NCBI GenBank assembly: GCA_963841935.1 | Contig: CAWJEP010000001.1 | Span: 141,302-205,301 of the forward strand | Length of the DNA stretch: 64,000 bases | Source of the DNA: an uncultured bacterium | Lineage (GTDB): Bacteria; Patescibacteriota; Minisyncoccia; Phycocordibacterales; UBA6065 | Direction of reading: 5' to 3' | Shown here: in pieces, positions 13,844 to 15,945 of the stretch | Position numbering within the stretch: position 1 is the stretch's first letter | Layout: each line of letters starts with the position of its first letter | Position numbers and translations under genes: made by a program | Notes under the pieces: model-generated | What the model was told of the DNA's origin: nothing | Database searches by the model: none | What the model saw: the letters and a program-made list of their open reading frames with translations, nothing else

Positions 13844-15900
13844 ATGGCGGATATTCCAAAAGACATCTCCTCTCGCGCCGAAAAACTGAGAAAGCTCATA
13901 GCTTTCCACTCGCGTCTCTATCACACTCTCGACAAACCTGAAATAGCGGATAGCGCGTACGACGCTTTGGTCGAAGAGCTCATAGCCATCGAGAAGAAAT
14001 ATCCCTCGCTTCAAACTTCCGATTCGCCGACCCAGAGGGTCGGCGGCGTTCCGCTCAAGGAATTTCAAAAAGTCGTTCATCAAGTTCCGCAGTGGTCTTT
14101 CAACGACGCTTTTAGCGAAGAGGACATCGCGGCCTTCGACGAACGCGTGAAAAAATTTCTCTTCGCCGCGCGCGGCAAGGCAATAACTCCTTCATACGAC
14201 TGCGAACTCAAAATCGACGGATTGAAAGTCGTTCTCGAATACGAGAAAGGCGTCTTGGTCCGCGCGGCGACGCGCGGCGACGGAGAGGTTGGCGAGGACG
14301 TCACGGCAAACGTCAGAACCATCAAGACCGTTCCTCTCCGTCTTTCTCGCGACGTGTCCGTTATCGTCGAAGGCGAGATTTGGATGAGCAAAAAAAATCT
14401 CGAGAGTCTCAATAAAAAGCGCGAGAAAGACGGAGAGCCGCTTTTTGCGAACCCGAGAAATGCCGCGGCCGGTTCCATTCGCCAACGACCGAAAATGCGG
14501 CGAGCCGAAAATGTGAACTCGACCCGAAAATCGCGGCAAGCCGAAAATTAGATAATTTCGCCTACGATTTGGCGAAAACGTCGGAGAAATTTCCGCCGAC
14601 TCAAAACGAAGAACTCGAATATCTAAAAGAGCTCGGTTTTACCGTAAATGAGCATCATGCCCTAGTTCAAAATACTGCTCAAATTATGGATTATTGGCGG
14701 CTTTGGCAGAAAAAGCGCGATAGCGTGGATTATCTTCTCGACGGCATTGTCATAAAAGTGAACGAAAAAGAATCCGAGGACGCTCTCGGCTACACCGGCA
14801 AAGCCCCTCGCTGGGCTATAGCTTTCAAATTTCCAGCGGAGCAAGTGACAACCGTCGTTAAAGATATTGTTTTTCAAGTCGGCCGCACCGGCGTCATCAC
14901 GCCCGTCGCCGTTTTTTCTCCGGTCAAAGTCGCGGGTTCTACTGTCGCGCGCGCCACGCTTCACAATGAAGACGAAATCAAACGTCTCGACGTGAGAATA
15001 GGCGACACGGTTATCATTCAGAAAGCCGGCGATGTCATTCCGGACATCGTTTCCGTGGTCAAAGAGCTTCGCACGGGAAAAGAAAAAGTTTTTTCATTCC
15101 CGACGCATGTGCCGGAGTGTGGAGGTGATGGAAAAATAGAAAGGATTCCCGGACAAGCGGCGCACAGATGCGTCGATAAAAATTCTTTTACGCTTCTTCG
15201 GAGGAAACTTCGCTACGCCACATCGAAACCGGCGCTCAACATCGACGGCATGGGTCCAAAAATAATAGATGCGTTCCTCGAGCACGGTTTGATTTCGTCT
15301 CTCCCCGATATTTTTGAATTGGAAAAAGACGAAATCCTGGAACTGCCGAGGTTTGCCGAACTTTCGGCGGAAAATATCGTCAAAGCCGTTGAAGTCGCGA
15401 GAAAAACGACATTGCCGAGACTTATCACGGCGCTTTCCATTGACCACGTCGGGGAAGAGACGGCGTATTTGCTCGCCGGACATTTCAAAACGATGGAGAA
15501 GATTCGCTCCGCGACAAAAGAAGAATTGGAAAAAATAAACGGCGTTGGCCCTGTCGTCGCGGAGTCGCTTTCGAAATGGTTCGCGGGCAAGGGGAACGGA
15601 AAAATGTTGGACAGACTTCTTTCGCACCTCAAAATCGAAAAGGCCGCGCCCGCCGTCTCGGCGGGCGCGGCCAGACTCTCTGGACTTACTTTCGTCTTGA
15701 CCGGCACACTCTCATCTCTCGAAAGAAACGAAGCCGAATCCAAAATCCGCTCCCTTGGCGGCAAAGTTTCTTCATCCGTCTCCAAGAAAACTTCGTATGT
15801 CGTCGCCGGAGCGGAACCCGGCTCAAAACTCGCAAAAGCCAATGAATTAGGCGTAAAAACCCTTACGGAACAAGACTTTTTAGCTCTATTGACAAAATAG
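13844..15900 (+). pseudogene. ligA: NAD-dependent DNA ligase LigA, reading frame broken at 14486-14517
   Basis: N-terminal part (13844-14485) has the KxDG adenylation motif [10 protein letters not shown] and ends ...[23 protein letters not shown]... continues in the +2 frame from 14518 through OB, Zn-finger, HhH and BRCT regions to 15900. The 32 intervening nt are an imperfect copy of the following 33 nt. Confidence 0.75.
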
Positions 15901-15945
15901 CCATATTTGGTATACAATACAAGCCGAGATAGAACATTGAAAAAA
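15758..15945. repeat. Direct repeat copy 1 (ligA 3' end + consensus promoter + 5'UTR start)
   Basis: About 188 bp, 97% identical to 17156-17341. Confidence 0.85.
15889..15918 (+). promoter_or_regulatory. Consensus sigma70 promoter copy 1 (TTGACA-N18-TACAAT)
   Basis: Near-perfect -35/-10 hexamers; same 60-bp module recurs at 17286 and 50698. Confidence 0.6.

What the first reader, a model, noticed from the sequence alone, without database searches (positions are those of the whole stretch)
15880..15945. Textbook-consensus sigma70 promoter module present three times, each driving one member of the target family
CTATTGACAAAATAGCCATATTTGGTATA(T/C)AAT is essentially the TTGACA/TATAAT consensus, with a TGg extended -10 option. 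It is followed in every copy by ATAGAACATTGAAA and a 95-160-nt 5'UTR that forms a hairpin in two copies (17349-17393 CAGCAGAAA...TTTCTGCTG; 50770-50786). Copies are at 15880-15945, 17277-17341 and 50690-50748. Such a promoter predicts very high expression of these small proteins, and the conserved UTR box could be a regulatory site.
Basis: seen in the sequence. Interest (0 to 1): 0.5.

Follow-up and report, generated by a model that had tools for sequence, protein, structure and literature searches.

The report
Shared promoter-leader of hypermutation target genes
Three near-identical, near-perfect promoters sit in front of three small genes of the kind rewritten by a built-in hypermutation system (a diversity-generating retroelement); they are the copy-and-pasted front end of a promoter plus folded-RNA leader conserved across dozens of related uncultured bacteria, whose regulatory role is still unknown.

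Summary
TTGACA-N18-TA(T/C)AAT occurs exactly three times, always on the + strand (15889-15918, 17286-17315, 50699-50728), and each copy is followed by ATAGAACATTGAAA. The three copies are three of the four best sigma70 matches in the window. The context is a Patescibacteria (CPR) diversity-generating retroelement (DGR) with an RT, a bAvd-like gene and two TR/VR pairs whose differences fall mainly at template adenines.

The module is the 5' part of a conserved expression unit for DGR target genes. Related loci keep a near-consensus promoter: 90% score >=10/12, against 6% of shuffles. The promoter is followed by the box. About half of the loci then carry a 19-pair hairpin: 97% of cells are paired and 16 of 19 pairs show compensatory changes. 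Two pairs are mostly G.U, which places the fold on the sense strand. Copies 1 and 2 carry this hairpin; copy 3 has only a short one. No Rfam family matches.

Within genomes the promoter-through-box block is copied between unrelated targets. In this window copy 2 drags along a 150-nt pseudo-fragment of ligA. Comparable identical blocks occur in three other genomes.

Promoter function is strongly inferred but not measured. The role of the leader is unknown. The TR RNA has its own extended -10 promoter.

The parts
15742..15942 (+). Repeat D1, copy A: last ~159 nt of ligA, promoter copy 1 and the box
   Evidence: 201-nt direct repeat, 95% identical to 17139-17339. The last ~140 nt differ only at the -10 (C/T). 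BRCT domain of NAD-dependent ligase; the ORF ends at 15900.
15889..15918 (+). Promoter copy 1: -35 TTGACA (15889-15894), 18-nt spacer, -10 TACAAT (15913-15918); overlaps the ligA stop codon (15898-15900)
15923..16009 (+). Leader 1: box ATAGAACATTGAAA (15929-15942) and long hairpin (15954-16002)
   Evidence: 56.9 bits. (model built without window sequences): 45.1 bits, E 2.8e-8.: -32 kcal/mol, z = -3.25.
16046..16783 (+). Target gene 1 (245 aa); VR1 at 16658-16778
   Evidence: VR1 against TR1 has 29 mismatches, 22 of them at template A.
16809..16838 (+). GC-rich hairpin plus T-run after gene 1 (terminator, and possibly the DGR target-site hairpin)
   Evidence: 13 pairs, 4-nt loop, followed by TTTTGTTTTT.
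17017..17137 (+). TR1 (A-rich template, AAC codons); abuts repeat D1 copy B
17139..17339 (+). Repeat D1, copy B: non-coding pseudo-fragment of the ligA 3' end (17139-~17297), promoter copy 2 and the box
17286..17315 (+). Promoter copy 2: TTGACA-N18-TATAAT (12/12)
17320..17403 (+). Leader 2: box (17326-17339) and long hairpin (17347-17396)
   Evidence: 62.2 bits; 52.2 bits, E 5.6e-10.: -45.8 kcal/mol, z = -5.06.
17468..18137 (+). Target gene 2; VR2 at 18013-18130; a 1-nt insertion near 18011 shifts the reading frame inside the VR
   Evidence: 12 of 12 mismatches with TR2 are at template A. Translations of the frames show the shift.
18189..18232 (+). Hairpin plus T-run after gene 2 (18189-18220), then the extended -10 promoter TGTTATAAT (18224-18232) for the TR RNA
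   Evidence: 51 of 71 related loci have TGnTAnnnT at this position, 7-9 nt before GGTAGTAGG.
18239..18595 (+). Conserved pre-TR element (18239-~18460) and TR2 (18478-18595)
18602..18988 (-). bAvd-like accessory gene; a G10 tract (18973-18982 on the + strand) lies in its first codons
   Evidence: PF22296, 37.9 bits (cut-off 40); the same gene is annotated bAvd in L002..
18996..19979 (+). DGR reverse transcriptase
   Evidence: RVT_1, E 1.8e-22; thousands of Patescibacteria homologs at 65-76% identity.
50661..50692 (+). Terminator-like palindrome plus T-run at the end of the upstream methyltransferase gene, just before copy 3
   Evidence: read from the sequence
50699..50728 (+). Promoter copy 3: TTGACA-N18-TATAAT (12/12), with a spacer identical to copies 1 and 2
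50738..50809 (+). Leader 3: box (50738-50751), short hairpin TCTTGC-ATTCC-GCAAGA (50754-50770), RBS AAGGAGATGACGCC
   Evidence: from CATTGAAAAATC to the ATG it is nearly identical to ortholog L003; only 9.8 bits to the long-leader model.
50810..51418 (+). Gene 3 (202 aa): member of a conserved Patescibacteria family with a C-type-lectin-like C-terminal domain; no TR found in the window
   Evidence: an ortholog in L004 has its own TR.

Best explanation
Each copy is most likely a working, strong housekeeping-type (sigma70) promoter for a DGR target gene, with transcription starting about 7 nt after the -10. The transcript begins with a conserved leader. First comes a short box, AG-N-N-C-N-TT-K-A (here AGAACATTGA). 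In copies 1 and 2 a long imperfect hairpin follows, containing CAYAGC...GCTRTG and folding in the sense-strand RNA. This promoter-plus-leader is the standard front end of DGR target genes in Patescibacteria and sits in front of several unrelated target protein families. Inside a genome, the block from the -35 through the box is copied between targets. The copying could be duplication or stacking of target-TR cassettes, or gene conversion. That copying explains why three unrelated genes here share a 42-nt promoter block that is 93-100% identical, including a spacer that is not constrained between species. It also explains why copy 2 carries a dead piece of ligA. What is shown: the sequence copies, the DGR context, promoter and box conservation, hairpin covariation and strand, the copied blocks and their boundaries, and a separate promoter for the TR RNA. 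What is inferred: that the promoter fires and is strong, and that the hairpin acts after transcription on mRNA stability, processing or translation. The hairpin is a ~25-bp duplex of the kind cut by RNase III or bound by a protein. The function of the box is unknown.
For: Copies and their rarity. DGR context: RT and bAvd; VR2/TR2 has 12 of 12 and VR1/TR1 has 22 of 29 mismatches at template A; the layout matches the B3 architecture reported for 90% of CPR DGRs (PMC5758913). Promoter conservation: 82 upstream regions of gene 3 relatives score >=10/12 in 90% against 6.2% of dinucleotide shuffles, >=11/12 in 61% against 0.2%, and 12/12 in 21% against 0%. In 92 non-redundant promoters the hexamers carry 1-1.9 bits per position and the spacer at most 0.6. 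Leader: the box and hairpin are seen in about 45 of 83 loci. RNAalifold gives 19 pairs, 16 with double changes. On 52 sequences, 97.2% of cells are paired against 76.5% in shuffles and 33-50% when partners are slid; the covariation score is 0.64 against 0.23; two pairs are mostly G.U. Specificity: in 857 kb and then 529 kb of related loci, all sense hits lie just upstream of target genes; minus-strand hits are weaker mirror images. In RT-anchored loci the leader lies 1.2-1.8 kb upstream of the RT on the same strand, has a 10-12/12 promoter in 17 of 19 hits, and precedes at least 5 unrelated protein families. A model built without window sequences still finds copies 1 and 2, at 45 and 52 bits. 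Copying: the 201-nt repeat with the ligA fragment. The copy 3 leader follows its ortholog L003 but its promoter follows its paralogs. L004 has a 300-nt identical block that includes the 3' end of a different upstream host gene, in front of two unrelated targets that each have their own TR. L071/L074 proteins are 57% identical yet share a 53-nt identical block that ends right after the box; L139 has a 68-nt identical block.
Against: No transcript or start-site data could be consulted, so promoter activity and strength are not measured. Promoter rules for Patescibacteria have not been established experimentally, to my knowledge. The 18-nt spacer is one longer than the optimum and than the family mode (17 nt in 57 of 92). 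Copy 1 has TACAAT. Copy 3 lacks the long hairpin, and about 29 family loci have short leaders, so the hairpin is not obligatory. The box shows no excess pairing with the RBS region (mean z = +0.14), and nothing identifies what reads it. The constant 16-17 nt spacing between the box and CAYAGC, and the co-inheritance of the box with the promoter, would also fit a DNA-level element. Gene 2 is frameshifted in this assembly and unit 1 lacks the conserved pre-TR element, so parts of the locus may be decaying.
Confidence: 0.7

Rival explanations
1. The box, and perhaps the hairpin, is a DNA-level control site. It would be an operator for a transcription factor, or an element read by RNA polymerase in the initially transcribed region. 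The module would then be a regulated promoter rather than a constitutively strong one. This can coexist with the best explanation.
For: In two independent genomes the copied block runs from the -35 exactly through the box and stops there: the window and L071/L074. That suggests the box belongs functionally with the promoter. The box lies 5-16 nt after the -10, where repressors commonly bind. The box shows no pairing signal with the rest of the leader.
Against: The distance from the -10 to the box varies by more than 10 nt, and is 36 nt in L042, which is unusual for an operator tied to a promoter. The box is not palindromic. No candidate regulator gene is consistently adjacent (gene tables). 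In L004 the copied block extends past the box into the hairpin, so the boundary is not fixed.
Confidence: 0.2
2. The conserved leader is a recombination handle. The hairpin or box would serve as a site, or simply as a homology arm, through which target-TR cassettes are exchanged and stacked, in the manner of integron cassettes behind a fixed promoter. The promoter would be the resident part.
For: The same leader precedes unrelated target proteins. Identity between copies breaks off within the leader: after the box in the window and L071/L074, and mid-hairpin in L004. Two genomes show stacked target-TR units flanked by a duplicated block that includes the 3' end of the upstream host gene, as a single-crossover insertion would produce. 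L004 has a Y1-transposase-like ORF between the units, and L005/L006 have a transposase fragment just upstream.
Against: The breakpoints are not at one fixed position. No integrase or recombinase is consistently present. The motif is never found outside the promoter-to-RBS position or in the opposite orientation in 1.4 Mb of related loci. Covariation that preserves a long helix with conserved G.U pairs fits an expressed RNA, although single-stranded DNA sites cannot be excluded on this basis. Ordinary homologous recombination between conserved flanks needs no dedicated site.
Confidence: 0.1
3. The leader hairpin is a working part of the retroelement itself. It might be bound by the RT/Avd complex, or it might couple transcription of the target to cDNA insertion at the VR. 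It would then be more than an mRNA control element.
For: The leader is found in front of DGR-type target genes, across several protein families. Near-consensus promoters would keep the target DNA heavily transcribed.
Against: Known cis requirements for DGR homing lie at the 3' end of the VR, as IMH plus a hairpin (PMC3240598; listed but not read here, so this rests on my own knowledge). Such hairpins are present here after both VRs. The TR RNA has its own promoter and its own large conserved element, with no resemblance to the leader. About a third of family members, including ones next to an RT, have short leaders without the hairpin: 17 of 39 non-hairpin loci have an adjacent RT.
Confidence: 0.07
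4. The module is a generic dispersed repeat (MITE or REP-like) or a chance resemblance to a promoter, with no expression role.
For: It is repeated, and part of copy 1 lies within the last codons of ligA.
Against: There are only three copies, all in one orientation and all directly upstream of target-type genes. The promoter hexamers are conserved at the same position in about 90 other genomes. Exact-pattern scans of 185,579 species genomes and of the metagenome collection found no other copy.
Confidence: 0.03

Closest known systems
Consensus sigma70 (RpoD) promoters, -35 TTGACA / -10 TATAAT
   Same: Both hexamers are perfect in copies 2 and 3 and 11/12 in copy 1. The spacer is within 16-18 nt. 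The site lies upstream of a gene on the same strand. The hexamers are conserved in relatives while the spacers vary.
   Different: The spacer is 18 nt, not 17. There is no canonical TGn at -15/-14 in that register. Activity has not been measured, and the promoter rules of Patescibacteria have not been established experimentally (my knowledge). The whole block, spacer included, is copied between genes in one genome.
CPR/Patescibacteria DGRs of 'B3' architecture (target - TR - avd reversed - RT; Wu et al. 2018, PMC5758913; DGR clade 2 of Roux et al. 2021, PMC8144416)
   Same: The gene order and orientation are the same. The mismatches are A-specific. An Avd-like protein and an RT 65-76% identical to thousands of CPR RTs are present. 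The targets are small proteins with a C-terminal variable region.
   Different: Neither survey mentions a promoter or a leader; the word 'promoter' occurs 0 times in both. This locus has two stacked target-TR units, each with its own TR, plus a remote family member that shares the promoter.
Bordetella phage BPP-1 DGR (mtd-VR, TR, avd, brt)
   Different: In BPP-1 the functional RNA flank (Sp) is 3' of the TR and avd is co-oriented (my knowledge; Handa et al. 2018, PMC6182149, listed but not read). Here a conserved ~220-nt element lies 5' of the TR and avd is reversed. No conserved target-gene leader has been described for BPP-1, to my knowledge.
Long 5'-UTR hairpins that control mRNA fate (RNase III sites such as the rnc and pnp leaders and the lambda N leader; 5' stabiliser stem-loops such as ompA) - from general knowledge
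   Same: It is a single long imperfect duplex of about 25 bp between the start site and the RBS, it is maintained by compensatory changes, and no U-run follows it.
   Different: The hairpin sits 30-40 nt from the predicted 5' end rather than at it. It has a conserved primary sequence (CAYAGC/GCTRTG) and a conserved upstream box. No cleavage or stability data exist.
Integron platform (a resident Pc promoter expressing exchangeable cassettes bounded by folded attC sites)
   Same: A conserved promoter-proximal element with a hairpin precedes interchangeable, unrelated coding cassettes. Cassettes are stacked in tandem in two genomes.
   Different: There is no integrase. Each cassette has its own promoter copy. 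The breakpoints are not fixed. The hairpin lies between the promoter and the RBS, not at the 3' end of a cassette.

Membership tests
sigma70-type promoter | -35 TTGACA-like and -10 TATAAT-like hexamers separated by 16-18 nt | tested here: met
   12/12, 12/12 and 11/12 with an 18-nt spacer.
sigma70-type promoter | Located upstream of, and co-oriented with, a gene, with the hexamers conserved at the equivalent position in relatives | tested here: met
   81-152 nt upstream of three ORFs. 90% of 82 related upstream regions score >=10/12, against 6% of shuffles. Hexamers carry 1-1.9 bits per position; the spacer carries at most 0.6.
sigma70-type promoter | A transcription start about 7 nt downstream of the -10 that depends on the hexamers | not testable with these tools
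   No transcriptome or biochemical data are available.
Extended -10 promoter (TGn at -15 to -13) | TG at -15/-14 immediately upstream of a good -10 | tested here: not met
   In the 18-nt register TG lies at -17/-16. The 16-nt register gives TGG but a -10 of TATATA or TATACA that lacks the -7 T. By contrast, the TR promoter at 18224-18232 (TGTTATAAT) does meet this feature.
Diversity-generating retroelement (context of the module) | Reverse transcriptase of the DGR clade | tested here: met
   RVT_1, E 1.8e-22. 65-76% identical to thousands of Patescibacteria RTs that sit next to bAvd genes.
Diversity-generating retroelement (context of the module) | A TR/VR repeat pair whose differences fall at template adenines | tested here: met
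   VR2/TR2: 12 of 12 mismatches at A. VR1/TR1: 22 of 29 at A. Gene 3: no TR found in the window.
Diversity-generating retroelement (context of the module) | Accessory protein Avd | tested here: inconclusive
   PF22296 bAvd scores 37.9 bits, just under the 40-bit cut-off. The identical gene on L002 and its counterparts in relatives carry a precomputed bAvd hit.
Diversity-generating retroelement (context of the module) | Variable region displayed on a C-type-lectin-like fold | tested here: met
Any described RNA family (Rfam 15) | A match to a curated covariance model | tested here: not met
   The gathering-threshold scan of the window finds only tRNAs. The permissive scan of 15850-17500 gives only chance-level hits far below gathering scores.
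Conserved structured RNA element (generic) | A helix supported by compensatory changes beyond controls, specific to one strand | tested here: met
   16 of 19 pairs have double changes. 97.2% of cells are paired, against 76.5% (shuffled) and 33-50% (slid). Two pairs are mostly G.U. Sense hits outscore mirror hits by 25-35 bits. The alignment was fitted to the model, which favours the structure somewhat.
Riboswitch or other two-state leader | Mutually exclusive alternative pairing that involves the RBS or a terminator | tested here: inconclusive
   The 3' arm against the downstream leader gives a mean z of -0.97 (27% below -1.64), against -0.18 (12%) for the 5' arm. A search for a second copy of the 5' arm gave a mean Hamming distance of 3.41 against 3.81 for shuffles. 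No multi-helix junction is present.
Intrinsic terminator / attenuator | A hairpin followed directly by a U-run | tested here: not met
   The leader hairpins are followed by GGCAAAGC / AGCGAAGAG and were not called by the terminator scan.
Dispersed repeat (REP/MITE) | Many copies, in both orientations, in varied contexts | tested here: not met
   Three copies, one orientation and one context in 64 kb. No exact copies in the public collections. The complete source genome was not available.
Integron-like cassette site | An adjacent integrase and a fixed crossover point in the folded site | tested here: not met
   The identity breakpoints differ between genomes. No integrase appears in the gene tables of related loci. 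The window's own ORFs were not scanned systematically for recombinases.

The most novel reading that the evidence does not exclude
The conserved promoter-box-hairpin leader is a dedicated functional component of Patescibacteria DGR cassettes rather than an ordinary mRNA leader. It could be the handle through which target-TR cassettes are swapped and stacked behind a resident promoter, which would explain why unrelated targets share it and why copied blocks end inside it. Alternatively, it could be an RNA element that ties target expression to retroelement activity. Either role would add a new cis element to the DGR parts list.
Probability: 0.15. Interest if true: 0.8.

Novelty: new member of a known kind. 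Interest (0 to 1): 0.5.

Why it matters
DGRs of the candidate phyla radiation are very numerous but have never been studied experimentally, and published surveys describe their genes rather than their control regions. This work gives a concrete, testable expression unit for their target genes: a near-consensus promoter, a conserved 5' box and a covarying hairpin that is absent from Rfam. It also shows that this unit is copied between unrelated targets inside genomes. That provides (i) ready-made promoter and leader parts for expressing or reconstituting CPR DGRs in a model host. It provides (ii) comparative evidence on what a strong promoter looks like in organisms with no genetics. It provides (iii) a candidate regulatory RNA whose reader is unknown. 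It provides (iv) a marker for finding remote DGR targets, such as gene 3, that lie far from any RT. The side observations matter for anyone trying to understand how these elements are transcribed and switched: the TR RNA has its own extended -10 promoter, a large conserved element lies 5' of the TR, and a variable poly-G tract sits at the avd/RT junction.

Tried and rejected
1. Exact-pattern scans for the 30-nt promoter in genome contigs and metagenome contigs found nothing, so relatives had to be reached through proteins.
2. The closest RT relative (P0002, 76% identity) yielded no usable DNA.
3. Idea: the box is an anti-Shine-Dalgarno sequence. Rejected, because there is no excess complementarity to the RBS region (mean z = +0.14).
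4. Idea: the hairpin's 3' arm alternates between the 5' arm and a downstream copy, acting as a switch. The signal is only weak, so this is left as inconclusive.
5. Idea: the strong promoter also supplies the TR RNA by reading through the terminator. Dropped for unit 2, because a conserved extended -10 promoter sits right before the pre-TR element in 51 of 71 loci.
6. Idea: the identical 18-nt spacer reflects a conserved operator, such as the AAATA-N4-TATTT inverted repeat. Not supported, because spacer positions carry at most 0.6 bit across 92 promoters.
7. Idea: leader type tracks adjacency to the RT. It does not: an RT is adjacent in 20 of 46 long-leader loci and 17 of 39 others.
8. Rfam gave no family, at either the gathering or the permissive threshold.
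10. Literature searches found no description of a promoter or leader for CPR DGR targets. Paul et al. 2017 could not be retrieved.
11. Resemblances of the box to a Cheo/LexA half-site, to an ECF -35, or to a second -35 were considered by eye. They were dropped as inconsistent across loci and were not tested formally.
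Full report

Yes. The 30-nt pattern TTGACAAAATAGCCATATTTGGTATAYAAT occurs three times in the window. All three are exact matches on the + strand, at 15889-15918, 17286-17315 and 50699-50728; shuffles give none. ATAGAACATTGAAA follows each copy, at 15929, 17326 and 50738, and occurs nowhere else at up to 2 mismatches. A perfect TTGACA-N16-18-TATAAT occurs only at copies 2 and 3. On both strands of the 64 kb, the three copies are three of the four best sigma70 matches.

Several details need correcting.
- In the best register the spacer is 18 nt and there is no canonical TGn at -15/-14.
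- The -10 to ATG distances are 127, 152 and 81 nt.
- Copy 1 also has a long hairpin, at 15954-16002. The copy 2 hairpin is at 17347-17396.
- The copy 3 hairpin is short, lies at 50754-50770 rather than 50770-50786, and is not clearly more stable than shuffles. The z scores are -3.25, -5.06 and -1.52 for copies 1, 2 and 3.

**2. What surrounds the copies?**

The first two copies lie in a diversity-generating retroelement (DGR). The locus reads, left to right:
- ligA, split into two ORFs ending at 15900
- promoter 1, then gene 1 (16046-16783)
- a GC-rich hairpin
- TR1 (17017-17137)
- promoter 2, then gene 2 (17468-18137)
- a second hairpin
- TR2 (18478-18595)
- a bAvd-like gene on the minus strand
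- a reverse transcriptase (18996-19979)

VR2 differs from TR2 at 12 positions, all template adenines. VR1 differs from TR1 at 29 positions, 22 of them adenines. The RT is 65-76% identical to thousands of Patescibacteria RTs. The layout matches the 'B3' architecture that Wu et al. report for 90% of CPR DGRs (PMC5758913).

The three proteins are not similar to one another by BLAST. 'Target family' therefore holds only in the sense of DGR-target type.

**3. The module is part of a larger copied block.**

Copies 1 and 2 belong to a 201-nt direct repeat, 15742-15942 = 17139-17339. In copy 1 that stretch is the real 3' end of ligA, and the stop codon sits between the -35 and the -10. In copy 2 the same ~150 nt are a non-coding relic that starts one base after TR1. 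The promoter-proximal ~140 nt differ only at the -10 position (C/T), whereas the genes that follow are unrelated.

Copy 3 shares a 42-nt block and the box, but not the 9-10 nt between them.

Comparison with L003 shows the copying directly. L003 is the closest ortholog of gene 3, at 76% protein identity. From CATTGAAAAATC to the start codon, copy 3 is almost identical to L003. Upstream of that point it matches its paralogs in this genome and not the ortholog. The promoter block was therefore swapped in or homogenised within this genome.

**4. The same thing happens elsewhere.**

- In L004 (a 595-kb Patescibacteria contig), a 300-nt block is repeated 2.35 kb apart at 98% identity. It contains the 3' end of a different upstream host gene (SIMPL domain), a terminator, the promoter, the box and the first arm of the hairpin. 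The two copies precede two unrelated proteins, each with its own A-mutated TR, next to bAvd(-)/RT(+).
- In one Taylorbacteria MAG, two family members that are only 57% identical share a 53-nt identical block. It runs from the -35 to the end of the box, the same right-hand boundary as in the window.
- L139 has a 68-nt identical promoter block in front of two units.

Across species the spacer is not conserved, carrying at most 0.6 bit per position in 92 promoters. Identity within a genome therefore reflects copying, not a shared constraint. Whether the copying is gene conversion, tandem duplication or single-crossover insertion of an allelic cassette cannot be decided here. The duplicated piece of the upstream host gene in two genomes is what an insertion or duplication would leave behind.

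**5. Is it a promoter?**

Comparative evidence says yes. I fetched 80 loci of gene 3 relatives from species-representative genomes. Of 82 upstream regions:
- 90% contain a match of at least 10/12, against 6.2% of dinucleotide shuffles.
- 61% score at least 11/12, against 0.2%.
- 21% are perfect, against 0%.

The hexamers carry 1-1.9 bits per position. The flanks are near zero, apart from an A/T run after the -35 and TGn (43%) or GTG (33%) before the -10. No expression data could be consulted, so activity and strength remain inferences.

**6. The leader.**

After the -10, at a variable distance of 5-16 nt, most long-leader loci have a box of the form AG-N-N-C-N-TT-K-A-N-A (AGTTCTTTGATA, AGAACCTTGAAA; here AGAACATTGAAA). 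It is usually followed by CTTGCGA and then by a long imperfect hairpin containing CAYAGC...GCTRTG.

The evidence for the hairpin is as follows.
- RNAalifold on 37 leaders gives 19 pairs, 16 with compensatory double changes.
- On 52 model-aligned sequences, 97.2% of cells pair. The comparison figures are 76.5% after shuffling and 33-50% when partner columns are slid. The covariation score is 0.64 against 0.23.
- Two pairs are mostly G.U. These would be C.A on the other strand, so the fold belongs to the sense strand.
- A covariance model finds sense hits only directly upstream of target genes in 857 kb of family loci.
- In 529 kb of loci fetched independently through the RT, it finds the motif on the RT strand, 1.2-1.8 kb upstream of the RT. 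That holds in about 20 of about 36 loci with enough flank. A 10-12/12 promoter lies just before 17 of the 19 such hits examined, and at least five unrelated protein families follow.
- A model built without any window sequence still recovers copy 2 (52 bits) and copy 1 (45 bits) as the only sense hits in the window.
- Copy 3 has only the box and a short hairpin (9.8 bits). About 29 family loci also have short leaders.
- Rfam has no matching family.
- The DGR surveys I could read never mention a promoter or a leader.

**7. What does the leader do?**

This is not resolved.
- It is not a terminator, since no U-run follows it.
- The box does not look like an anti-SD sequence.
- A possible alternative partner for the 3' arm gave only a weak signal.
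- Leader type does not track adjacency to the RT.
- My first idea, that the strong promoter also feeds the TR, is unnecessary. In 51 of 71 loci the target's GC-rich hairpin and T-run are followed by an extended -10 promoter (TGnTAnnnT) with no -35. Seven to nine nt later a large conserved element begins (GGTAGTAGG...) and runs up to the TR. In the window these are TGTTATAAT at 18224-18232 and the element from 18239.

The most economical reading is a strong promoter plus a structured mRNA leader that acts on processing, stability or translation. A ~25-bp duplex is the kind of substrate RNase III cuts. The box is either part of that RNA or a DNA-level site that travels with the promoter.

**8. 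Rivals.**

- A DNA-level operator role for the box is compatible with the main reading. It is favoured by the block boundary falling right after the box in two genomes. It is weakened by the variable distance from the -10.
- A recombination-handle role is suggested by breakpoints inside the leader, by the stacked cassettes, and by transposase ORFs nearby in L004-L006. However, the breakpoints are not fixed and no recombinase is consistently present.
- A direct role in retrohoming has no positive evidence beyond the association.
- A generic repeat is essentially excluded.

**9. Verdict.**

The finding is real, and its core reading as a promoter for DGR-type genes is well supported by comparison, though unproven by expression data. 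The added value has three parts. The module is the copied front end of a widely conserved promoter-leader unit. That unit contains a covarying hairpin not present in Rfam. Such units are copied between unrelated targets within genomes. I class it as a new member of a known kind (a cis-acting promoter and leader). Interest is moderate for specialists in DGRs, CPR biology or RNA motifs.

Noticed in passing
window 18973-18982; loci L090-L167 just upstream of the RT: A poly-G tract (G10 here) lies between the avd start codon (18988, minus strand, giving MLPPPR) and the RT start. A G8-G12 tract, with lengths that are not multiples of three, occurs 17-75 nt upstream of the RT in 30 of 37 related DGR loci. 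It could be a slipped-strand on/off switch for avd, or an element of the RT 5' region.
   Followed up: partly
window 18239-~18460; about 55-70 related loci: A large conserved element lies directly 5' of the TR: GGTAGTAGGCGAAT..CCGAA.CCAGTATCCAT..GACACTTCAAAAAATGAAGATACTTGGT..GGGCATT..GATGCCGAATACGAT..GAGAGTATTC. Several of its hairpins have arms that visibly covary. It is not in Rfam. It is probably the RNA scaffold of these DGRs. TR1 in the window has no recognisable copy.
   Followed up: partly
window 18224-18232; related loci: An extended -10 promoter without a -35 (TGTTATAAT here; TGnTAnnnT in 51 of 71 loci) sits immediately after the target gene's GC-rich hairpin and T-run, 7-9 nt before the pre-TR element. 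The TR RNA therefore has its own conserved promoter, and the post-VR hairpin occupies the -35 position.
   Followed up: partly
window 17990-18020: Gene 2 carries a 1-nt insertion relative to TR2 (GGCGTACTGG against GGCAACTGG) at an adenine position inside the VR, which shifts the reading frame. It is either a dead target or an assembly consensus of a mixed VR population.
   Followed up: no
window 13844-15900: The NAD-dependent DNA ligase gene is split into two ORFs (13844-14551 and 14569-15900), with the adenylation domain divided between them. This is a frameshift or an assembly error.
   Followed up: no
window 16779-17137: Unit 1 looks degraded compared with unit 2. VR1/TR1 has 7 mismatches that are not at adenines. 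After its hairpin there is only TCATAAAAT, with no TG. It has no pre-TR element, and TR1 abuts the ligA relic directly. TR1 and TR2 still share a core (ATTCTGACGGCAAC...), so the units are old paralogs.
   Followed up: partly
L004 10755-12206: Between the two stacked target-TR units of L004 lie a relic of the avd 3' end (repeat 11045-11142 = 13514-13611), a Y1-transposase-like ORF (11207-11875) and a 69-aa relic of the upstream SIMPL gene. Unit A seems to derive from a once complete DGR.
   Followed up: partly
window 50795-50812 and more than 50 family loci: The stretch between the Shine-Dalgarno sequence and the start codon is almost invariant across the gene 3 family (AAGGAGATGACGCCATG), which is far more conserved than a spacer needs to be. 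In the window it also reads as a 3-codon ORF (ATG ACG CCA TGA) overlapping the start codon, but that ORF is not conserved in other loci.
   Followed up: no
window 9282-13837: A run of six or more pilin-like genes has near-identical N-terminal coding repeats (KGFTLIELLV, repeat family D2) upstream of ligA. The same order, pilin cluster then ligA then target gene, is seen in L005.
   Followed up: no
window 22333-22765: A cluster of five tRNA genes on the minus strand and one on the plus strand.
   Followed up: no
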